A stretch of 64,000 nt of DNA from Lysobacterales bacterium (GTDB lineage Bacteria > Pseudomonadota > Gammaproteobacteria > Xanthomonadales > SZUA-5). A model generated the notes under the pieces. That model saw nothing but the letters and a program-made list of their open reading frames with translations. It did no database searches and was not told the origin of the DNA. The stretch spans positions 228,778 through 292,777 of the forward strand of contig JAXMHB010000003.1 of NCBI GenBank assembly GCA_046346965.1, read 5' to 3'. Positions 1-44,199 of the stretch are shown one piece after another (positions within the stretch are counted from its first letter, which is position 1; every line of letters begins with the position of its first letter). The position numbers and the translations under genes are program-made.

Positions 1-168
1 CCGCCAGACCCAACAAAGCGACTGCATGAAGCAGCTGTAGAAGGCACCGTCGCATATCGCTACTCCGCTCTGCATGCTGCGCAGCATCGCGCGCCCAGGC
101 TGATCGCTTCCTGAGCGCGCAATTCCGGCCGATAGAGACGCTCTTGCCAATCATTGTGCTTGGGCAAA

Positions 169-285
169 AGCGGGGCGGGGGTTAGGGGGCGGGGGACCGG
201 CATTGCGGCGCCCGCGTTGCGCTGTCGCCAACTTGCAGAACAAGTAAGCACGCCGAAGGCGAGACAGGGACTCTGAAAAGTCTCG
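169..285 (+). repeat. Dispersed intergenic repeat element, copy 1 of 3 (about 115 bp). Its 5' end is G4C-G5-TTA-G5C-G5 (180-203), a canonical G-quadruplex motif
   Basis: Near-identical to 8306-8431 and partially to 20678-20720. All three are on the + strand. It produces the same spurious peptide (MPVPRPLTPAPLL) in three antisense ORFs of the track. Confidence 0.75.
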
Positions 286-8305: not shown

Positions 8306-8431
8306 GGGGCAAAAGCGGGGCGGGGGTGAGGGGGCGGGGGACCGGCACTGCAGTGCATGCGTTGCACGGTCGCCGGCTTGCAGAACGAACGAGCGCGCCG
8401 AAGGCGAGGCAGGGACTCTGAACAAGGCTCG
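8306..8431 (+). repeat. Dispersed intergenic repeat element, copy 2 of 3. The G4 motif is at 8317-8340
   Basis: Aligns with 169-285 over about 115 bp. Sits in the divergent sulfatase/pgk promoter region. Confidence 0.75.
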
Positions 8432-10389: not shown

Positions 10390-11412
10390 ATGCGAGCGTG
10401 GTGTGCTGTCCTACTCTGTGTGCTCTCCCCGTGCGCCGTTCAGGCCCTGAGCCTGAGCAATACGCTGGGGGAGGACCAACGCGCCGAAACCTTGAGCGTC
10501 GAGATCGACGGGCGCGTGGTCGGGCGACTCAAGCTCGACGCCGAGCACCTGCAGGCCACGCTGCGCTTGCCTGCGGGCGCGCGCCGCTACCGGCTACAGG
10601 GAACGGCAGAGATGAGCGATGGCACACGGCTGACGGTGGCGGGCGCCGGGCTGATCGTCTCGGTCGCCGAGATGGACCGCATCGGCGAGGCAGGCCGCGC
10701 CGCGGACGCGCTCGCCGCCTATGAGGATCTGGTCCGCGCGCTGCAGGCGGCGGCGCCGGAGGTCGATCTGTCGGCGCTGCCGTTGACGCGCGGAAGGCCG
10801 GTCAGCGAGGCCGAGTTGGCCGCCGCCGAGCGCCGCCTGGGCACGCGTTTGCCCGCGGGCTATCGCGAGCAGCTGCGGACCCTCGGCGCACTGACGGTGG
10901 GACTGCCCGATGCGCCCAGCGGGCGGCTCTACGGTCCGGATGCGCTGGACACGCTGCAGGCCTGGGTGCTCGCCCGGGCCGCCGAGAACGATTCCAGTCG
11001 CCAGGAGCTGCGCGCAATCGAGGCCTTCATCGGCAAGCGCTTCCGCCCGGCACGCCAGGATCTGGTCCTCGGCGTCTGGGAACGCGACGAACCCACGCTG
11101 GTACGCGCTGGCGAGCGCTGCCCGAGCGGCGAAACACCCTACGCCTTCCCGGAAACCCAATGGGAAGTGCTGATGGGAGCTGGCCTAGACGACAACGCCT
11201 TCATGGGCCTGATCAGCTATGAGGATGACATCGTCGGCGAGACGCAGTGCCTGAGTTTTGATCGGGAACTGGCCTACTCGCTGCACGACCACCTGATCGA
11301 ACTCGGCCGCGACGCGCTCTACGTGATCGGCCCCGACGAAACCCGGATCGCGATCCAGCGGCGCGATATCGATCGGGAGCGTATTTGGTTGGGGCTGACT
11401 GAGGGGGAGTAG
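10390..11412 (+). CDS. Secreted hypothetical protein with a SMI1/KNR4 (SUKH)-like segment
   Basis: Signal peptide MRAWCAVLLCVLSPCAVQA. The central segment ELAAAERRLGTRLPAGYREQLRTLGAL resembles the SUKH/SMI1-KNR4 core motif. Confidence 0.55.
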   Translation: MRAWCAVLLCVLSPCAVQALSLSNTLGEDQRAETLSVEIDGRVVGRLKLDAEHLQATLRLPAGARRYRLQGTAEMSDGTRLTVAGAGLIVSVAEMDRIGEAGRAADALAAYEDLVRALQAAAPEVDLSALPLTRGRPVSEAELAAAERRLGTRLPAGYREQLRTLGALTVGLPDAPSGRLYGPDALDTLQAWVLARAAENDSSRQELRAIEAFIGKRFRPARQDLVLGVWERDEPTLVRAGERCPSGETPYAFPETQWEVLMGAGLDDNAFMGLISYEDDIVGETQCLSFDRELAYSLHDHLIELGRDALYVIGPDETRIAIQRRDIDRERIWLGLTEGE

Positions 11413-12640
11413 GGAATGGAACGGGAAAAGGGAAAAAGGGAAAGGGAAAAAGGAAGAGCGGCGGCCGTTGCAGAGCCCCGTAGGCAGGGTCCTTCGCGTC
11501 CGCGCTGTGCAAGACCGTCCCGTAGGCCGGGTCCTTCGCGTCCGCAGTGTGCAGCTTCGCCGCAGGTTCCCACACGCGAGGCGCCCGGCGCTGTGCTGCG
11601 GCAGGTCTGTCGACCTGGCCGCGCAGGGATCGCGATGGACCTCCGGGGTGTTGCGACCTGCCCGAAAGTGTCTCCCGAGGACCTGCGCAGGGATCTCGAT
11701 GGTGCTGCGAGGGTGTCCCGATACCCTCCCGAGGCTGTCGCGACCTGCCCAAAGGTATCTCGCGAGGACTTGCGCGGGTCTGTCGATGACCTCGCGAGCC
11801 TGTCCCGAGGCCCTGCGCGCATGTCGCGATGTGCTTGCGAGGGTGTCCCGACGTGCTGCGAGCAGATCGCGATGGGCTCGCAGGGGTGGACCTGTGGGCT
11901 TGCGAGGATATCGCGATGAGCTCGCAGCCCCACCGAAGAACCTCGACAGCGTGTCGCGACAGGGTCGTGGCTATGTCGGGACAGCCTCACCGGGTCGTTG
12001 CGATAGGGTCCGCAGCGTATCGCGATAGGCTCGAAAGGTGGTCGGGTGGGGCTCGAAAGGGTGTCGCGACAGGGTCCGCAGGGTATCGCGATATCCACGC
12101 AGGACATCGGGACCTGCGCGCGGGCCCGTCGTGATGGGCTGGCATGCAGGTCCGCAGAGGCGCCGAGGCTGTCGGGAGGGGGCGGCCGGTATAGCCGGGC
12201 AGCGCGATGAGCGTGGTCTGGCGCTCGGCTACCCCGATCCGGAGCGAGTTGTCTTCCGGATGGAAGAGGGAAAAGGAAAAAGGGACAAAGCGCGACCAGC
12301 AAAAGCCGCGGCCGCCGGCGCGATGAATGGCGGTCGCATTAAAGACGCTGCGGCGCGCACGGAGCCGCGCTACATTGCGCCTGGGACGCCGTGAGCCGCC
12401 ACTCCCTTTTTCCCACGGGGCGGGTGGGCAGCGGGGCGATTGGTAGAGAGTGAAAAGTGAAAAGTGAAAAGTGAAAGGAAAAGCCGCGGCCGCCGGCGGA
12501 TCGGACAAGGGTCGCGAGATGAACCCGACTGCGCGCACCGAGCCGCGCTGCGCGACGCTTGCAAGGAACTGTGAAAGGGCAGCGAGCGCTTCACCTTTAA
12601 CTTTTAACTTTTAACTTTTCACTCCATATCCCACCCATCC
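11413..12640. repeat. 1.2 kb non-coding repeat-rich region with several repeat classes. Purine-rich SSRs: (GGAAAAG)n at 11416-11460 and 12262-12290, (GTGAAAA)4 at 12448-12476, (TTTTAAC)3 at 12596-12622. Degenerate tandem units of about 87 and 44 bp. Duplicated blocks of about 150 bp. About 11 phased TCGCGA palindromes
   Basis: Three overlapping spurious ORFs on both strands show no codon-position GC periodicity, unlike flanking genes. All repeats were read directly in the sequence. Confidence 0.7.
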
Positions 12641-13957
12641 TCACCCCACCGGCAACCGCACCACCACCACGCAGCCGCGCGCGTCGGGGCGGTTGGACAG
12701 CGTCAGCGTGCCGCCGTGGTTCTCGGTGATCTGCCGCGCCAGCACCAGACCGACGCCGCTACCGCCGGGTTTGGTCGTGTAGAAGGGCACGAACAAGTTG
12801 TCGGTCTTGGCGAGGCCGGGGCCGTCGTCTTCGATCTCGATCTGTACCCAGTCGTTCTCGGCGTTCAGTCGGATGCGAACGCCGCCATCGGTTTCGAGCG
12901 CGGCTTCGGCGGCGTTCTTGGTCAGGTTGATCAGCGCCTGTTCCAGTTGATCGGGATCGGCATGCAGGCGGATCTCCGGCCAGTCGCCGATGGCAATGCT
13001 GCGGCGCTGTTCCAGCCGGGCGACGCGGCGCAGCAGTCCGGACAGCTCGACCTCCCGCTTGTGCGGCGGCGGCAGGCGCGCCAGTCGGGTGTAGGTGGAC
13101 ATGAAGCGCGTCAGCGACTCGGCGCGATCGCCGATGATGCCGAGCGCGCCCTGGACGTCCTCGCGCCAGTCCTCCGGCAAGGGCTCGCGCGCCACGATGC
13201 CGACTAGCGTGGCCGCCATCGAACGGATCGGCGCCAGCGAGTTATTGAGCTCATGGCCGAGCACGCGGATCAGGCGCTGCCAGGCCTGGCGCTCCTCCTC
13301 ACGCAGCGCGCGCGACAGATCGGTGATCGCCAGCAGTTCGTGCGGGCGACCGCCCTCGCGAAAGGCCGCGCGGCGCAAATCGAAGCTGCCGGCGCCGCCC
13401 GGGAAGGCGGTCTTCAGCGTCGCCGGTGTCTCGGCTTCACAGCAGGCGTCGAGGCCCAGTTCGCGCGCCGTGCGTCCCAGCGCCTGGCTGGCCGGCAGTG
13501 CCAGCAAGCGCTCGCCGGCCGGGTTGATCAGTTTGAGCTGACGCTGATCATCGAGCGCAAAAATGGCGATATCGACGTTCGCCAGCACCTTGGTCAGCAG
13601 CGCGCCCGACTCCTCGACCTTGAGGCGCTGCTCGCGCAGCGTGCTGGCCAGCGCGTTGACCTCCCACAGCACTTCCCCGAGCGCATCGCCGCGCCGCGCC
13701 GAGATGCTGCGCAGACTGTAGTCACCGGCGCGCAGCGCATCGAGCAGATTCACCAGCGTCAGCAAAGGGTGCACGACCTCGCGCCGCAAGCGCCGCCACA
13801 GCCAGGCGGTCAGCGCCACCAGTGCAGCCATCGCCCCGAAACGCAGACCCGGCGTCCCGTCCAGCCGCCACAGGTACACGCAGGCCAGCACCAGCGCCGG
13901 CAGCACCAGCAGCACCGACCAGAGCCCGACCCGCAGCTCGTAGCGCAGGCGGCTCAT
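12641..13957 (-). CDS. Sensor histidine kinase with 2 TM helices, HAMP/PAS, HisKA and HATPase_c domains
   Basis: H-box LGHELNNSLAPI and G-boxes DDGPGL and GGSGVGL. Start chosen at MSRLRYEL. The track ORF extends into the repeat arrays. Confidence 0.85.
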   Translation of the reverse strand: MSRLRYELRVGLWSVLLVLPALVLACVYLWRLDGTPGLRFGAMAALVALTAWLWRRLRREVVHPLLTLVNLLDALRAGDYSLRSISARRGDALGEVLWEVNALASTLREQRLKVEESGALLTKVLANVDIAIFALDDQRQLKLINPAGERLLALPASQALGRTARELGLDACCEAETPATLKTAFPGGAGSFDLRRAAFREGGRPHELLAITDLSRALREEERQAWQRLIRVLGHELNNSLAPIRSMAATLVGIVAREPLPEDWREDVQGALGIIGDRAESLTRFMSTYTRLARLPPPHKREVELSGLLRRVARLEQRRSIAIGDWPEIRLHADPDQLEQALINLTKNAAEAALETDGGVRIRLNAENDWVQIEIEDDGPGLAKTDNLFVPFYTTKPGGSGVGLVLARQITENHGGTLTLSNRPDARGCVVVVRLPVG

Positions 13958-13969
13958 TGGAGCGCCCAG

Positions 13970-14328
13970 AAGCCGAGGGCCCGAAAGCCGAGGGCACGAG
14001 GGCACGAGGGCACGCAAAAGCCGAGGGCACGAGGGCACGAGGGCACGAGGGCACGCGAAAGCGCAGGCACAAGCGGAAGCAACAGCAGTCCTGCCGCATG
14101 CGGATGCAGACCTGCCGTCGGCACCGCCGCCCACAACGCCATGCTGCGATCACCGCGGGGAGCCGCAAGGTCCCCCGGCACCCGCTTCTGCGTGCCCTCG
14201 TGCCCTCGTGCCCTCGTGCCCCGGCTTCTGCGTGCCCTCATGCCCTCATGCCCTTCTGCCTCCGCCTCTGCGTGCCCTCGTGCCCTCATGCCCTTCTGCC
14301 TCCGCCTCTGCGTGCCCTCGTGCCCTCG
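13970..14328. repeat. Inverted arrays of tandem 8-mers filling the intergenic region. (GAGGGCAC)n units are on the left arm (13970-14063) and (GTGCCCTC)n units on the right arm (14184-14328), around a unique core of about 120 bp
   Basis: The left units AAAGCCGAGGGCACGAGGGCACGAGGGCACGC are exact reverse complements of the right units. Fills the gap between the regulator stop and the kinase start. Confidence 0.75.
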
Positions 14329-14338
14329 CAAATCCGCT

Positions 14339-15721
<1,383 letters not shown>

Positions 15722-15932
15722 GCGGGTGTCCGTTGGTGCAGGAATGGAGCGCGCTACGCAGTTTACGTGCCAGGCCGCAGACAGCACGCGCTGGCACGGG
15801 CAGCGCACAACAGTGTCCGATTCCGGACAGCAAAAGCGATCAGCCGTCCGCCTTCATACAACGGTCGTCAGGCCGTCACGCCGCTGTTGCCTGGGCTGCG
15901 CACAGTCCGCGCCATCGCCAGAGGAGCATCTC

Positions 15933-17645
15933 ATGCACAGTCTGCAGACCGAGATCATCCAGCGCTGGCCGCATTGGTTCGCCGGTGCCCGCGCGCGTCT
16001 GACCCGCCCTCTGCTCGATCGCCTGCTGCGCTACACGCGGCTGGATCGGGCCGAGGCCTTTCTGGCGGCGCATCCGCATCTGCGCGGTCTGGAGTTTGTC
16101 GAGGGCGTGCTGCGCGATCTGGATGTGCGTTACCAGGTGGACGATCTGGAGCGCCAACGGATTCCGCTCAGCGGCGCATGCGTGATCGTCGCCAACCATC
16201 CGCTCGGTGGACTGGATGCGCTGGCGCTGCTGAAGCTGGTGGGCGATCTGCGCCGCGATGTGCACATCGTCGCGAATGACTGGCTGTGCCGCCTGCAGCC
16301 GCTCAGGGAGCTGTTGCTGCCAGTGCGCGTATTCGGCGGGCGCAGCGGCGGCGCGCAACTCGATGCCATCGACGCGGCGCTGGCGCAGGGCGCCGCAGTG
16401 ATCGTATTCCCCGCCGCCGAGGTCTCGCGCCTGTCCTGGCGCGGCATCCGCGACCGTGCCTGGCGCCAGGGTTTCGTCCGCTTTGCCGCACGCCATCAAG
16501 CGCCGGTGCTGCCGGTGCGCGTGCAGGCACGCAACTCCATCGGTTTTTACGCCGGCGCAGCGCTCGCCAGTCCGCTCGGGACGGCGCTGCTGCCGCGCGA
16601 GCTGTACGCGCCGGGTGGCCGGCGTATCGAGATGCGCATCGCCCGCCCGTGGTCGCTGCCGGCCGACGCCGATCAAGGCGGCCAGGCCCGCGGCATCGCG
16701 GCGCGCGTGCAGCAGGCGGTCGAACGCCTGCGGCGCGGACGCGATATGCTGCCGGCGCGCGCCGAAGCCATCGCCCATCCGCTGCACCGCGATGCGCTGG
16801 TCAGCGCCATCGCCACCCTTGATGTGCTCGGTGAGACCGCCGACGGCAAGCGCATCTTGCTGGCGCAGCCGGGCGCGCCGTCGATCGTGCTGCGCGAAAT
16901 CGCGCGCCTCCGTGAACTGACCTTTCGCGCGGTCGGCGAGGGCACCGGGACGGCACTGGACTGGGATCGCTTCGATGCCTGGTACGACCAGATCGTGCTG
17001 TGGGACAGCACTGCCCAGCGCATCGTCGGCGCCTACCGGGTGGGACGCAGTGCCGCGATCCTGGCCCAGCACGGCAAGGCCGGGCTGTACACACACACCT
17101 TGTTCGACTTCGATCCGCGCCTGGACGAAGTACTCGGCAGCGGCCTGGAACTCGGTCGCAGCTTCGTCGTGCCCGACTACTGGGGCAGCCGCAGCCTCGA
17201 CTACCTGTGGTACGGCATTGGTGCCTACCTGCGCCGCTACCCCGATCTGCGCTGGCTGTTTGGCACCGTGTCGATCAGCGCCGCATTGCCGCGACCTGCA
17301 CGCGATCACTTGGTGGGTTACTACCAGCAGCACCACGGCGGCGATTCCGGGCTGGTGCGTGCGCACCATCCCTACCCCACACCACCGCCGCACTACGCCG
17401 AACTCGACAGTACCCAGGCCTTCCGCGTGCTGCGCGACAACCTGCAGCAATTCGGCGCGCGCGTGCCCACTCTGTACAAGCAATACACCGAGCTGTGCGA
17501 GCCGGGCGGCGCGCGCTTCCTGGCGTTTGGTGTCGACCCCGATTTCAACGACGCCGTGGACGGGTTGATCCTCGTCGATCTGCAGCAAGTGACGCCGCGC
17601 AAGCGCGAGCGCTATCTGGTTGCGCGCACGGAGCTGACGGCATGA
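15933..17645 (+). CDS. Two-domain acyltransferase: N-terminal PlsC/OlsA-like O-acyltransferase and C-terminal OlsB-like N-acyltransferase (OlsF-like, ornithine-lipid synthase type)
   Basis: HPLGGLDALAL acyltransferase motif in the N-terminal half. The OlsB/hemolysin-like region (GAYRVGRS...GLYTHTLFDFD) is in the C-terminal half. GAGGAG RBS 6 nt before the ATG at 15933. Confidence 0.6.
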   Translation: MHSLQTEIIQRWPHWFAGARARLTRPLLDRLLRYTRLDRAEAFLAAHPHLRGLEFVEGVLRDLDVRYQVDDLERQRIPLSGACVIVANHPLGGLDALALLKLVGDLRRDVHIVANDWLCRLQPLRELLLPVRVFGGRSGGAQLDAIDAALAQGAAVIVFPAAEVSRLSWRGIRDRAWRQGFVRFAARHQAPVLPVRVQARNSIGFYAGAALASPLGTALLPRELYAPGGRRIEMRIARPWSLPADADQGGQARGIAARVQQAVERLRRGRDMLPARAEAIAHPLHRDALVSAIATLDVLGETADGKRILLAQPGAPSIVLREIARLRELTFRAVGEGTGTALDWDRFDAWYDQIVLWDSTAQRIVGAYRVGRSAAILAQHGKAGLYTHTLFDFDPRLDEVLGSGLELGRSFVVPDYWGSRSLDYLWYGIGAYLRRYPDLRWLFGTVSISAALPRPARDHLVGYYQQHHGGDSGLVRAHHPYPTPPPHYAELDSTQAFRVLRDNLQQFGARVPTLYKQYTELCEPGGARFLAFGVDPDFNDAVDGLILVDLQQVTPRKRERYLVARTELTA

Positions 17646-20647: not shown

Positions 20648-20677
20648 GTGCCTGGAAGGAAGAGCGGGACGAACAAC

Positions 20678-20720
20678 AGCGGGGCGGGGGTCAGGGGGCG
20701 GGGGACCGGCATTGTCGCCT
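20678..20720 (+). repeat. Dispersed repeat element, copy 3 (truncated, 5' G4 part only). G-runs at 20682-20705
   Basis: CAGCGGGGCGGGGGTCAGGGGGCGGGGGACCGGCATTG matches copies 1 and 2. Confidence 0.7.
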
Positions 20721-20731
20721 TTGCGTGGCTG

Positions 20732-20873
20732 GTCCCGAGTCCCGAGTCCCGAGTCCCGAGTCCCGAGTCCCGAGTCCCGAGTCCCGAGTCCCGAGTCCCG
20801 AGTCCCGAGTCCCAGTCCCAAGTCCCAGTCCCGGGTCCCGAGTCCCGGGTCCCGGGTCCCGAGCCCAGGGTCC
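20732..20873. repeat. Heptanucleotide microsatellite (GAGTCCC)n. Ten perfect units at 20739-20808, flanked by degenerate units
   Basis: Read directly in the sequence. Lies about 110 bp upstream of the Grx-fusion gene start. Confidence 0.85.
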
Positions 20874-20983
20874 CGCCCTTTCACCCACCCGGCCAGCGCT
20901 TCCTTAACACCTCGGTCACGCGCAGTCGCGGCGGCGGCGCTATCCTGATGCGATTGCTTGCTGATCTCAAAAGGATGCTGACC

Positions 20984-31282: not shown

Positions 31283-31430
31283 GCCCGAGGACCTGCTTCG
31301 AATGAATGGTGCGTCACGCGACTCTAGCGAAGCGGCGCGGCGCGCGCAGGCCATGGCTCGCCCTGGCCCGCCCGCGTCACGCGGGCGGGCCCTGACGGCC
31401 GGCCGACTCCCCTGAGCCGGCCGGCAAGCC

Positions 31431-32570: not shown

Positions 32571-32913
32571 GACACGAATTCCTTTTCTTGATGAGGTAAC
32601 ACTCTCCCAGTGCGCTCCACGCAGGGTCAGCGGGTGCCAGTCGGCGGATCTGAGGCACTTGCCAGCGGCGCAGGAGTCCGGGGGCGTCGATGCACGACGG
32701 GAGAGGACTCAGGCGGCGCTGGCAGGCCGCAAATCGTCTGAGCGGACACGCAGGCCAACCCTGCGTTGTGAGCCTGCTTCCACGGCCTGACACCCCTGCC
32801 CGGCGATGTCACCCGTATCCACAGGGCTCACTGGAGCCCAAGGGCATGGCCGCCTCGCGGCGACCACACTGCCGAGCTTGCCCCCTCGGCGGGGTGTTGC
32901 AGATGGCCTTGCG

Positions 32914-32986
32914 GCCTAACGGCGGGAGTCGAACCCGCTACCCAGTCATTCTCAGTGACTTGCTCTACCGGATGAGCTACGTTGGT
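32914..32986 (-). tRNA. tRNA-like sequence A, possible pseudo-tRNA. Class-I cloverleaf with anticodon loop CTGAGAA (anticodon GAG) and two mismatches in the acceptor stem
   Basis: D-arm GCTC-ATCCGGTA-GAGC and T-arm GCGGG-TTCGACT-CCCGC were read manually. Bacterial tRNA-Leu(GAG) should be class II, so this looks non-canonical. No CCA is encoded. Confidence 0.4.
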
Positions 32987-32995
32987 CTTGCGACC

Positions 32996-33066
32996 GGTGG
33001 ATCGCCATGGAGTCGAACCATGTCCTCCCGCGTCCGGCGGGCGCTCTACCGCTGAGCTAGCGAACC
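32996..33066 (-). tRNA. tRNA-like sequence B, probable pseudo-tRNA. Good D-arm, T-arm and acceptor stem, but the anticodon arm is only 15 nt, with a 5-nt loop or a non-canonical 7-nt loop (C33)
   Basis: GGTTCGC-TA-GCTCAGCGGTAGAGC...CATGGTTCGACTCCATG-GCGATCC-ACC was read manually. One T-T mismatch in the acceptor stem. Confidence 0.35.
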
Positions 33067-44162: not shown

Positions 44163-44192
44163 GACGACGACGCCGGCAATGCCGGCGTCGTC
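44163..44192. terminator. Palindromic hairpin GACGACGCCGGCA-a-TGCCGGCGTCGTC between convergent genes
   Basis: Inverted repeat read directly, between the grxC stop and the stop of the minus-strand hypothetical gene. Confidence 0.55.
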
Positions 44193-44199
44193 GCACGCA

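What the first reader, a model, noticed from the sequence alone, without database searches (positions are those of the whole stretch)
13970..14328. Inverted arrays of 8-mer tandem repeats filling the regulator/kinase intergenic region
Between the stop of the sigma-54 response regulator (14339) and the start of its cognate kinase (about 13957), about 360 bp consist of (GAGGGCAC)n units, in two blocks of 3-4 units each prefixed by AAAGCC. An inverted right arm carries four blocks of (GTGCCCTC)n. Together these can form a very long imperfect hairpin or cruciform around a unique core of about 120 bp. Within a regulator-kinase operon this could attenuate or uncouple kinase expression, or act as a REP/BIME-like element. 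The 8-bp unit is not a multiple of 3. If any part is translated, slippage would shift the frame. The supplied ORF track's over-extended kinase ORF reads straight through it.
Basis: seen in the sequence. Interest (0 to 1): 0.65.

Follow-up and report, generated by a model that had tools for sequence, protein, structure and literature searches.

The report
Dispersed octamer-repeat hairpin between regulator and kinase
The 360-bp spacer between a response-regulator gene and its kinase gene really is two facing arrays of an 8-base repeat, but it is one copy of a repeat family scattered through Lysobacterales genomes, related to the four-unit G-rich repeats known in Xanthomonas, and not a device specific to this operon.

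Summary
(GAGGGCAC)n blocks at 13968-14054 face 17 octamer slots of (GTGCCCTC)n at 14192-14327 around a 119-nt core. The element lies between the regulator stop codon (14339) and the kinase ATG (13957). It is far beyond chance and is non-coding.

The local interpretation is only partly supported. The same array occurs at 70 or more loci in Lysobacterales metagenome-assembled genomes. It usually has four units. The G-rich arm always comes first (32 of 32 adjacent arrays). It often starts a few bases after a stop codon. Loop sequences are unrelated or strongly diverged.

Orthologous regulator-kinase spacers in other species hold a 7-mer version, GTAG-type REPs, or nothing structured. So the element is not a conserved part of the operon. 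A second strain differs by one 40-nt block and one 8-mer.

The closest known kind is the (GGGAATC)n quadruplex-forming repeats of Xanthomonas (Rehm 2015). These also prefer four units, form inverted pairs and have no known function.

The most likely effect here is inferred, not shown. In the bicistronic mRNA the element would fold into a very stable stem-loop that acts like a REP element and lowers kinase output relative to the regulator.

I rate it a new member of a known kind, of moderate to low interest.

The parts
14339..15721 (-). Sigma-54-dependent response regulator gene. The probable start is MADLPIL at 15721, and the longest ORF extends to 15808. The stop codon TGA is at 14341-14339.
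   Evidence: Pfam finds Response_reg, Sigma54_activat, AAA_lid_14 and HTH_8. Orthologues of 459-462 aa lie upstream of the kinase in L106-L113.
14328..14338 (-). 11-nt linker (AGCGGAUUUGC on the sense strand) between the regulator stop codon and the first repeat unit.
   Evidence: Sequence read directly.
14192..14327 (-). 5' arm on the sense (minus) strand. It has 17 octamer slots in one register, carrying four blocks of GAGGGCAC units (GTGCCCTC on +) organised as a 40-nt higher-order repeat x 3.7. It contains a G3N5 x 4 quadruplex-type motif at 14195-14222 (minus strand).
   Evidence: The second strain, L114, has one 40-nt block fewer.
14183..14191 (.). Inner boundary motif cgcttctgc. It is complementary to gcgaaagcg at 14055-14063, with G-U pairing on the sense strand. 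The same GnAAAGC...GCTTTnC pattern borders the loops of most family members.
14064..14182 (.). Unique core (the loop), 119 nt. It matches no Rfam family, has no promoter or terminator consensus, and has no match in phage or plasmid collections. It differs by 5 SNPs between two strains.
14055..14063 (.). Inner boundary motif gcgaaagcg.
13968..14054 (-). 3' arm on the sense strand (GUGCCCUC units in the mRNA, GAGGGCAC on +). The blocks carry 1 degenerate unit, 3 units and 4 units, each prefixed by rAAAGCC (33-nt higher-order period). It contains a quadruplex-type motif at 14025-14051 on the + strand. It ends 10 nt before the kinase ATG (13958-13967); the outermost, degenerate unit (13975-13982) ends 17 nt before it.
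   Evidence: L114 has one 8-mer fewer.
12641..13957 (-). NtrY-like histidine kinase gene, 438 aa, starting at the ATG at 13957. No Shine-Dalgarno-like sequence precedes the start.
   Evidence: Pfam finds HATPase_c, with weaker PAS_4 and HisKA hits. Homologues of 434-475 aa cover 99-100% of the 438-aa protein. In the N-terminal alignment, conservation begins at this Met. Exactly this product was called on three independent contigs.

Best explanation
What it is (well supported). The spacer is a compound copy of a dispersed family of hairpin repeats whose arms are short tandem arrays. The family is characteristic of Lysobacterales (Xanthomonadales) genomes. A typical member is (GAGGGCAC)~4, a GnAAAGC motif, a loop of 26-230 nt, a GCTTTnC motif, then (GTGCCCTC)~4. 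The G-rich array is always 5' on either strand, and the element usually starts a few bases after a stop codon. It is the octamer counterpart of the (GGGAATC)n quadruplex-forming repeats described in Xanthomonas. In this locus two to four arm blocks are stacked. That could have arisen by nested insertion or by slippage of 33- and 40-nt higher-order units. The copy number differs between strains. The element is non-coding and is not a conserved component of the regulator-kinase operon.

How it is maintained (inferred). Slippage homogenises units within an array. Either selection for pairing or arm-to-arm templated correction keeps the two arms complementary. The evidence is that paralogous elements with homologous cores carry different units that differ by single substitutions, and these units are matched in both arms.

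What it does here (inferred, not shown). If regulator and kinase are co-transcribed, the sense RNA folds into a stem-loop of about -280 kcal/mol. The stem-loop begins 12 nt after the regulator stop codon. The arm ends 10 nt before the kinase AUG, and its outermost repeat unit 17 nt before. I expect it to behave like an intercistronic REP element in three ways: as a barrier to 3' exonucleases or a partial terminator that favours the upstream regulator message, as possible interference with ribosomes terminating on the regulator, and as poor access to a kinase start that lacks a Shine-Dalgarno sequence. The net result would be more regulator than kinase. This effect would be generic to the repeat family, not evolved for this operon.
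For: Dispersal. Of these, 70 are in Lysobacterales, Rhodanobacteraceae, Tahibacter or 'Xanthomonas sp.' metagenome-assembled genomes, with dozens per genome.

Architecture. Of 99 arrays, 62 have four units, 16 have three and 10 have five. Of adjacent arrays less than 400 nt apart, 32 have the G-arm first and 0 have the C-arm first. None of the 26 loci from other phyla is paired.

Position. Almost all copies are intergenic. Many start 2-13 nt after a stop codon. Here the linker is 11 nt.

Arms versus loops. In one genome, five copies with 81-nt loops have perfect arms, but their loops are only 39-65% identical. Between L061 and L082 the arms match 40/40 while the loop matches 27/35.

Same core, different arm unit. 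Window elements at 12448-12624 (AGTGAAA/AGTTAAA) and 12255-12420 (GGGAAAA) share core blocks.

Orthologous spacers. L107 carries (GGCACGC)n...(GCGTGCC)n at the same place. L106, L109 and L110 carry GTAG-type REPs. L111 and L113 have no significant structure.

Strain variation. L114 has a 333-nt spacer against 381 nt here.

Fold. The sense strand folds at z = -12.35.

Non-coding status..

Known analogue. Rehm et al. 2015 (PMC4692102) report about 185 repeats per genome, 89-93% of them intergenic. They also report a four-unit preference, 70-75 inverted pairs per genome, positions within 50 bp of stop codons, and transcription of the repeats.

REP precedent. REPs closer than 16 nt to a stop codon lower translation of the upstream gene. 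This is the result of Liang et al. 2015 as summarised in PMC12306157.
Against: No expression data exist for this organism. Co-transcription, RNA folding in vivo and any effect on the regulator:kinase ratio are untested.

The window's own genome could not be scanned outside these 64 kb, and the window holds only this one GAGGGCAC locus. Dispersal is therefore shown in related genomes, not in this one.

The sense strand folds only slightly better than the antisense strand once base composition is allowed for (z -12.35 against -11.15). RNA-level selection is therefore not demonstrated.

The element lacks a U-tract, so classical intrinsic termination is unlikely.

In my crude gene maps about a fifth of family members lie between divergent genes (9 of 43). 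A purely 3'-end function does not explain those.

The strain difference in the 40-nt blocks comes from a k=141 short-read assembly, which could have collapsed a repeat.
Confidence: 0.6

Rival explanations
1. Locus-specific regulatory device. On this view the arrays evolved as an attenuator or uncoupler for this particular sigma-54 two-component pair, possibly tunable by unit-number slippage.
For: The element fills the whole regulator-kinase spacer. It starts 12 nt after the stop codon, and its outermost repeat unit ends 17 nt before the start codon. An analogous inverted-array element sits at the same place in L107 and L108. Unit number differs between strains.
Against: The same arrays flank unrelated genes at 70 or more loci. 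Other orthologous spacers hold REPs or unstructured sequence (z = -0.65 and +0.3 for L111 and L113). The window itself has sister elements after other genes' stop codons.
Confidence: 0.08
2. DNA-level non-B structure element. On this view the four-unit G3N5 arrays form G-quadruplexes, with i-motifs on the C-rich strand or a cruciform. These would act on replication, supercoiling or transcription, as proposed for the Xanthomonas GGGAATC repeats.
For: There is a sharp preference for four units, the minimum for an intramolecular quadruplex (the same holds in Rehm 2015). Eight of the nine G3+N1-7 x 4 motifs in the 64-kb window lie in arms of such repeat elements, and one lies on each strand of this locus. 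Rehm et al. showed quadruplex formation in vitro for the heptamer repeats.
Against: All eight positions of the unit are conserved across loci, not only the G-tract. Elements of the same architecture have arms without G3 tracts: AGTGAAA in the window and GGCACGC in L107. A perfectly complementary arm nearby favours a duplex or hairpin over a quadruplex. The absolute G-first orientation is not predicted by a quadruplex alone.
Confidence: 0.2
3. Selfish or neutral repeat. On this view the element is a MITE-like or foldback-like element, or a slippage by-product that accumulates in permissive intergenic sites, with no function for the host. Any effect on the kinase would be incidental.
For: Presence is variable at orthologous sites and between strains. 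For example, the AGTGAAA element is absent from the 96%-identity strain L100. Nested or stacked blocks occur here. A half element sits inside a glgB ORF in L092. No function was found for the Xanthomonas analogue.
Against: The arms are perfect while loops of the same copies are 35-60% diverged. The four-unit peak is not the monotonic length distribution expected from slippage alone. The 32:0 orientation bias also argues against neutrality. No transposase was found nearby. No target-site duplication was identified, although this was not tested systematically.
Confidence: 0.25
4. Bidirectional transcription terminator. On this view the long GC-rich hairpin, placed just after stop codons and sometimes bracketed by AAAAGC...GCTTTT, terminates transcription from both directions. 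The kinase would then need its own promoter.
For: Family members lie close after stop codons, including between convergent genes. A/T-rich brackets are present in one genome. Every orthologous regulator-kinase spacer is at least 90 nt long, which leaves room for a promoter.
Against: There is no U-tract after the 3' arm here (GGCUUUCGGGCCC). The terminator and promoter scans of 12400-16100 found nothing. No sigma-54 -24/-12 motif lies nearby. Loops of 26-230 nt are far from the canonical 3-8 nt. About a fifth of copies lie between divergent genes.
Confidence: 0.15

Closest known systems
G-rich heptamer simple sequence repeats (GGGAATC)n / GGGNATC of Xanthomonas campestris and X. citri (Rehm et al. 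2015, PLoS One, PMC4692102)
   Same: Both lie in the order Lysobacterales/Xanthomonadales. Both are tandem 7-8-nt units with one G3 tract. Both have many dispersed, mostly intergenic copies and a strong preference for four units. In both, a large fraction occurs as inverted pairs in convergent orientation, able to form stem-loops. Both sit within about 50 bp of stop or start codons. In both, length varies between relatives while the type (single or paired) is kept. Function is unknown for both.
   Different: The unit here is an octamer (GAGGGCAC) with loop CACGA, not a heptamer. It was found in uncultured Lysobacterales and Rhodanobacteraceae-type genomes, not in Xanthomonas proper. This copy is compound: it has 33- and 40-nt higher-order repeats and unequal arms of 87 and 136 nt. 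I also see homologous loops within subfamilies and different arm units on homologous cores, which that paper does not describe. Quadruplex formation was not tested for this unit.
REP / BIME / REPIN elements (repetitive extragenic palindromes), including the GTAG- and CGTC-tagged REP superfamilies (PMC3733652, PMC3116915)
   Same: Both are high-copy extragenic elements that are transcribed with flanking genes and form stable hairpins. They often lie just after stop codons or between cistrons. Pairs in inverted orientation have a less conserved spacer, as in REPINs. The likely consequences are also shared: mRNA 3'-end protection, differential expression within operons, and reduced translation of the upstream gene when the element is closer than 16 nt to the stop codon.
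   Different: A REP is itself a 20-40-nt imperfect palindrome with a GTAG or CGTC tag, mobilised by RAYT transposases. Here each arm is a non-palindromic tandem array with no tag, and no RAYT link was found. True GTAG-type REPs occupy the same spacer in other species (L106, L109, L110). They are clearly a different sequence family.
MITEs, and eukaryotic Foldback elements whose terminal inverted repeats are built of short tandem repeats (Foldback comparison from my own knowledge)
   Same: Both are small non-autonomous-looking units of about 100-300 bp with long terminal inverted repeats. Subfamilies share a loop length (81 nt; about 135-140 nt) and have diverged but homologous interiors. Nesting occurs. 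Insertion polymorphism between strains was seen for a sister element.
   Different: No target-site duplication, transposase or recent near-identical copies were seen. The arms are far better conserved than the interiors, which is the opposite of a recently spread MITE.
Rho-independent (intrinsic) terminators
   Same: Both are GC-rich hairpins immediately downstream of stop codons. Some family members have A-rich and T-rich brackets.
   Different: There is no U-tract here. The stem of more than 30 bp and the loop of 119 nt are far outside the canonical geometry. The consensus scan found none.

Membership tests
G-tract SSR family of Xanthomonadales (Rehm et al. 2015) | Tandem repeat of a short unit that carries one G3 tract (GGGNATC heptamer in the description) | tested here: inconclusive
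   The unit GAGGGCAC has one G3 tract and gives G3N5 spacing. It is an octamer of different sequence, so it belongs to the same kind but not the same sequence family.
G-tract SSR family of Xanthomonadales (Rehm et al. 2015) | Many dispersed copies, mostly intergenic | tested here: met
Of these, 70 are in Lysobacterales-type metagenome-assembled genomes, and almost all are intergenic. This is not shown for the window's own genome outside the 64 kb.
G-tract SSR family of Xanthomonadales (Rehm et al. 2015) | Preference for four units | tested here: met
   62 of 99 arrays have 4 units, 16 have 3 and 10 have 5. In this locus the block sizes are 3, 4, 3(+1), 2-3, 2 and 2.
G-tract SSR family of Xanthomonadales (Rehm et al. 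2015) | Frequent inverted pairs in convergent orientation | tested here: met
   26 pairs were found among 73 elements. The orientation is G-arm first in 32 cases and C-arm first in 0. This locus has the same arrangement.
G-tract SSR family of Xanthomonadales (Rehm et al. 2015) | G-quadruplex formation by the repeat | not testable with these tools
   Only the sequence motif is present. Circular dichroism or NMR on oligonucleotides is needed.
REP / REPIN (RAYT-associated) | The unit is itself a 20-40-nt imperfect palindrome with a GTAG or CGTC tag | tested here: not met
   The arms are direct 8-mer arrays without internal dyad symmetry and without a GTAG or CGTC tag. GTAG-type REPs in L106, L109 and L110 are unrelated in sequence.
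REP / REPIN (RAYT-associated) | Association with a RAYT (IS200/IS605-like) transposase gene flanked by the repeats | not tested
   Only two gene-flanking cases were inspected, and they held an ABC ATPase and GlgB. No genome-wide search was possible.
MITE | Terminal inverted repeats plus target-site duplication, with near-identical dispersed copies | tested here: inconclusive
   The arms can serve as terminal inverted repeats. Loops within a subfamily are only 39-65% identical. No target-site duplication was identified. Presence/absence polymorphism was seen only for a sister element.
Intrinsic terminator | Short GC-rich stem, 3-8-nt loop, U-tract | tested here: not met
   The scan of 12400-16100 found none. 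The 3' arm is followed by GGCUUUCGGGCCC.
Known structured RNA (Rfam) | Match to a covariance model | tested here: not met
   No family matched at gathering threshold in the window apart from 2 tRNAs. The only hit at E up to 1 in 11350-14400 was a chance one.

The most novel reading that the evidence does not exclude
The arrays could be the visible product of an active, sequence-specific maintenance system, not of passive slippage. Four observations point that way. The arms stay perfect, usually at exactly four units, while the loops of the same copies diverge by 35-60%. The G-rich array is always the 5' arm on both strands (32:0). Homologous cores carry different arm units that have swept through both arms. 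Single arms also occur next to other arrays.

This pattern would fit a process that builds or repairs G-rich repeats at both 3' ends of a hairpin or a break. Candidates are templated addition, or arm-to-arm template switching coupled to a binding protein. That would make this a new class of bacterial foldback element with tandem-repeat arms and a dedicated partner.
Probability: 0.12. Interest if true: 0.75.

Novelty: new member of a known kind. Interest (0 to 1): 0.35.

Why it matters
For this locus the practical points concern annotation and assembly. The kinase ORF should start at 13957, not at 14134. The spacer breaks short-read assemblies: five of the six Logan contigs carrying the kinase of the 96%-identity strain end 45 nt upstream of its start, and the four whose ends were read (L001, L002, L101, L114) lie in or just beside the array. 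The spacer is also a variable-number repeat that could be used for strain typing.

More generally, the (GGGAATC)n phenomenon described in Xanthomonas is not limited to one heptamer or one genus. Other Lysobacterales carry octamer and other units with the same four-unit, G-arm-first, after-the-stop-codon architecture. The function and origin of these repeats are still unknown.

If the hairpin does lower kinase output, repeats of this kind would be a generic and fast-evolving source of expression differences within operons.

Tried and rejected
- **Coding repeat or frameshift-prone N-terminus.** Rejected. Homologues of 434-475 aa align from the ATG at 13957, and the 59-aa extension is not conserved. 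Pfam finds nothing in the 125-aa ORF across the array.
- **Known RNA family in the core.** None was found.
- **Sigma-70 promoter, intrinsic terminator or sigma-54 -24/-12 element in or near the spacer.** None was found.
- **Loops as captured foreign DNA (a spacer-like memory).** Ten loops of the family plus the window core gave no match in the phage collection. The whole element gave no match in the plasmid collection, although BLAST's low-complexity filter may mask the arms. The equal-length loops in one genome turned out to be diverged homologues once orientation was taken into account.
- **RNA-level selection shown by strand asymmetry.** The sense strand is 37 kcal/mol more stable. Shuffled controls differ by about 30 kcal/mol from base composition alone, so this is inconclusive.
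- **Transposase between neighbouring elements.** Only an ABC ATPase and GlgB were found.
- **Source genome.** The exact regulator and Pgk proteins are not on record. The kinase occurs only on short metagenome contigs. None of the 96 pattern loci overlaps the window.
- **Assembly artefact.** Rejected. The arrays are present in independent assemblies (L001-L003, L101, L114).
Full report
**1. The observation**

The region reads exactly as described. On the + strand it runs as follows:
- agaagcc-GAGGGCCC (13968-13982)
- gaaagcc-(GAGGGCAC)3 (13983-14013)
- gcaaaagcc-(GAGGGCAC)4 (14014-14054)
- gcgaaagcg (14055-14063)
- a unique 119-nt core (14064-14182)
- cgcttctgc (14183-14191)
- 17 octamer slots in one register (14192-14327)

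The 17 slots hold four blocks of GTGCCCTC units separated by degenerate units.

Tandem Repeats Finder finds the 8-nt period on both sides. It also finds higher-order periods of 33 nt (x 1.9, left) and 40 nt (x 3.7, right). A two-unit probe with up to 2 mismatches hits 12 times, all in this locus, against 0.08 expected. Inverted arms reach 39 nt at 95% and 26 nt at 100% complementarity.

As RNA, the minus (sense) strand of 13940-14345 folds at -279.2 kcal/mol with z = -12.35. The plus strand folds at -241.9 kcal/mol with z = -11.15.

**2. The flanking genes**

Both genes are on the minus strand. The first is a sigma-54-dependent response regulator, with stop codon at 14341-14339 and a probable start at 15721. 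The second is an NtrY-like histidine kinase at 13957-12641.

Kinase homologues are 434-475 aa long and cover 99-100% of the 438-aa version. In a nine-sequence alignment, conservation begins at the Met encoded at 13957. The 59-residue extension of the longest ORF (start at 14134) is the repeat read as CPRALVPSCPR..., and it has no counterpart in homologues.

The array is therefore intergenic. It begins 12 nt after the regulator stop codon. Its outermost, degenerate unit ends 17 nt before the kinase ATG. No Shine-Dalgarno-like sequence precedes that ATG.

**3. It is not unique to this locus**

Seventy of them come from metagenome-assembled genomes labelled Lysobacterales, Rhodanobacteraceae, Tahibacter or 'Xanthomonas sp.', with dozens of loci per genome. 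The 26 hits from other phyla (Streptomyces, Acidimicrobiia and others) are single arrays and are never paired.

Within the Lysobacterales set I counted 99 arrays, allowing up to 1 mismatch per unit and requiring at least 3 units. The unit numbers were:

| Units per array | Number of arrays |
|---|---|
| 3 | 16 |
| 4 | 62 |
| 5 | 10 |
| 6 | 6 |
| 7-11 | 5 |

These arrays form 26 hairpin pairs and 47 apparent singles.

When two arrays lie within 400 nt of each other, the G-rich array precedes the C-rich one in 32 cases, and the reverse order never occurs. The paired copies read (GAGGGCAC)~4, GnAAAGC, a loop of 26-230 nt, GCTTTnC, then (GTGCCCTC)~4. In one genome there are additional AAAAGC and GCTTTT brackets outside the arms.

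With a crude GC3-based gene map, almost all copies are intergenic. Many begin 2-13 nt after a stop codon. The flanking genes are co-oriented in 25 cases, convergent in 9 and divergent in 9.

That test is met.

**4. Arms and loops evolve differently**

In the genome JALHMG, five copies share an 81-nt loop length. At first the loops looked unrelated. Once orientation is taken into account, their interiors are 39-65% identical without gaps, against 14-29% in the wrong orientation. All arms in these copies are perfect four-unit arrays.

In a homologous block shared by L061 and L082, the arms match 40/40, the loop 27/35 and the flank about 78%.

In the window itself, two neighbouring elements share core blocks (AGCGCGGCTCsGTGCGCGC and CGCCGGCGGCCGCGGCTTTT) but carry different arm units. 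One lies at 12448-12624, with arms (AGTGAAA/AGTTAAA)4 facing (TTTCACT)4. The other lies at 12255-12420, with GGGAAAA-type arms. These units differ by single substitutions that have spread through an array and into the opposite arm.

The arms therefore evolve in concert and are kept complementary, while the loops drift.

Many 'single' GAGGGCAC arrays have a different array on the far side of a conserved core. One example is (CCGAGTC)n in the genome JANJUH. Another is (GTGCCCC)n around a pair of GTAG-type REPs.

**5. The orthologous spacer in other species**

The regulator-then-kinase order is conserved, and every spacer is at least 90 nt long. What the spacer holds varies:

| Locus | Spacer content | Fold z-score |
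|---|---|---|
| L107/L108 (kinase 76% identical) | Same architecture with a 7-mer: (GGCACGC)n, gaaaagcc, loop, (GCGTGCC)n | -5.85 |
| L106, L109, L110 | One to three GTAG-type REPs | -1.3 to -4.2 |
| L111 | Degenerate GGGCACGCG-like remnants | -0.65 |
| L113 | Nothing repetitive | +0.3 |

A large hairpin is therefore common in this spacer but is not required by the operon. The spacer behaves as a landing or growth site for whatever repeat family the genome carries.

**6. Variation within the species**

An independent metagenome contig of the same species, L114, is 98.6-98.9% identical in DNA and has an identical kinase. It spans the whole spacer, which is 333 nt there against 381 nt in the window. 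L114 has one 40-nt higher-order block fewer in the sense 5' arm and one 8-mer fewer in the 3' arm. It also has a unit substitution and 5 SNPs in the core.

The 40-nt difference should be confirmed with long reads, because the assembly used k = 141.

Short-read contigs of this and a 96%-identity strain end at the array. Reads of L001, L002 and L101 show contig ends in or beside it, and five of the six L100-L105 contigs stop 45 nt upstream of the kinase start. In the 96% strain the AGTGAAA element downstream of the kinase is absent, and the neighbouring GGGAAAA-type arm is longer.

**7. Comparison with what is known**

Rehm et al. 2015 (PMC4692102) described (GGGAATC)n repeats in Xanthomonas campestris and X. 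citri. They report the following features:
- about 185 repeats per genome, of which 89-93% are intergenic
- 70-75 inverted pairs per genome in convergent orientation
- enrichment within 50 bp of stop codons on the coding strand and of start codons on the non-coding strand
- under-representation between divergent genes
- length changes between species while the type (single or paired) is kept
- transcription of the repeats
- no identified function

Every architectural feature I could test is shared. The unit sequence and length (an octamer), the host genomes and the compound higher-order structure differ. I therefore file the finding as a new member of that kind.

It is not a REP in the strict sense, because its arms are not palindromes, carry no GTAG or CGTC tag and show no RAYT link. 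It is not an intrinsic terminator, because it has no U-tract and one search found none. It is not a demonstrated MITE, because no target-site duplication and no near-identical copies were seen.

**8. How it most likely works**

Three things are shown: the anatomy, the dispersal and the concerted evolution of the arms.

What follows is inferred. Slippage homogenises units within an array. Pairing selection or template switching between arms keeps the two arms matched.

In a regulator-kinase transcript the element would form a very stable stem-loop directly after the regulator stop codon and directly before a kinase start that lacks a Shine-Dalgarno sequence.

By analogy with intercistronic REPs, this should favour the upstream message and reduce kinase synthesis. 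REPs protect mRNA 3' ends, and REPs closer than 16 nt to a stop codon stall terminating ribosomes (Liang et al. 2015, as summarised in PMC12306157). From my own knowledge, two-component systems usually need more regulator than kinase, so the outcome would be tolerated.

The quadruplex reading of Rehm et al. remains possible. One G3N5 x 4 motif lies on each strand of the locus. It does not explain the conservation of all eight unit positions. It also does not explain sister elements whose arms lack G-tracts.

A purely selfish or neutral origin does not explain the perfect arms, the four-unit peak or the 32:0 orientation bias.

**9. Verdict**

This is a real and striking feature. It is a compound member of a dispersed, already described kind of repeat and not an operon-specific device, and its function is still unknown. 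Interest is 0.35. The more novel possibility, that an active sequence-specific process builds or maintains the arms, is not excluded, but nothing here shows it directly.

Noticed in passing
window 11413-12640: A 1.2-kb gene-free stretch lies between the convergent SMI1_KNR4-like gene and the kinase, and it is filled with repeats. These are (GGGAAAA)n 10 nt after the stop codon (11423-11455), a 35-nt direct repeat (11477-11553), and 87/43/22-nt tandem and inverted repeats built on GTCGCGA/GTCCCGA/ATCGCGA (11649-12114). Two hairpin elements with tandem-repeat arms complete it (12255-12420 and 12448-12624). A strain with a 96%-identical kinase (L100) has only 457 nt here.
   Followed up: partly
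window 12448-12624 and 12255-12420: Two adjacent hairpin elements share core blocks but have different 7-mer arm units: AGTGAAA/AGTTAAA facing TTTCACT, and GGGAAAA-type facing TTTTCCC. The units differ by single substitutions. The first element is missing in strain L100.
   Followed up: yes
window 20674-20880: About 21 copies of (GTCCCGA) lie directly after a G-rich block GGGGCGGGGGTCAGGGGGCGGGGGACC. In the genome JANJUH (L006, L007, L027, L040) the same heptamer array sits opposite (GAGGGCAC)n around a conserved core, gaaagagcat...(cctttgcgt)n...atgctcttc.
   Followed up: partly
window 162-277, 8307-8422, 20674-20714: Three copies of another repeat family are present. Each has a quadruplex-type arm GGGGCGGGGGTnAGGGGGCGGGGGACC followed by a core about 86% identical over roughly 80 nt. 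The first copy has a complementary C-rich arm at about 355-385. The second lies in a probably divergent promoter region upstream of pgk.
   Followed up: partly
L092 5640-5700 (MAG JALHMG010000035.1): Half an element, aaaagc(GAGGGCAC)4gcgctccgttcgaa, lies inside an intact-looking GlgB ORF. The Pfam domains GlgB_N, CBM_48 and Alpha-amylase are present. The array is read as VPSCPRALVPS within an insertion of about 60 aa between the CBM48 and catalytic domains.
   Followed up: partly
L106 5840-5935, L109 2870-2960, L110 2780-2920: Orthologous regulator-kinase spacers in other Lysobacterales carry one to three GTAG-tagged REP-like units (ccgtaggtcacgttggccgcgcagcgggctacgtgacg). The same spacer therefore hosts different repeat families in different lineages.
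   Followed up: partly
window 31365-31391 and 44165-44193: Two near-perfect palindromes of 27-29 nt (96-97% identity) lie in short intergenic gaps. They were not examined further.
   Followed up: no
window 32913-33066: Adjacent tRNA-Leu(GAG) and tRNA-Ser(GGA) genes lie on the minus strand. They are the only Rfam hits at gathering threshold in the window.
   Followed up: no
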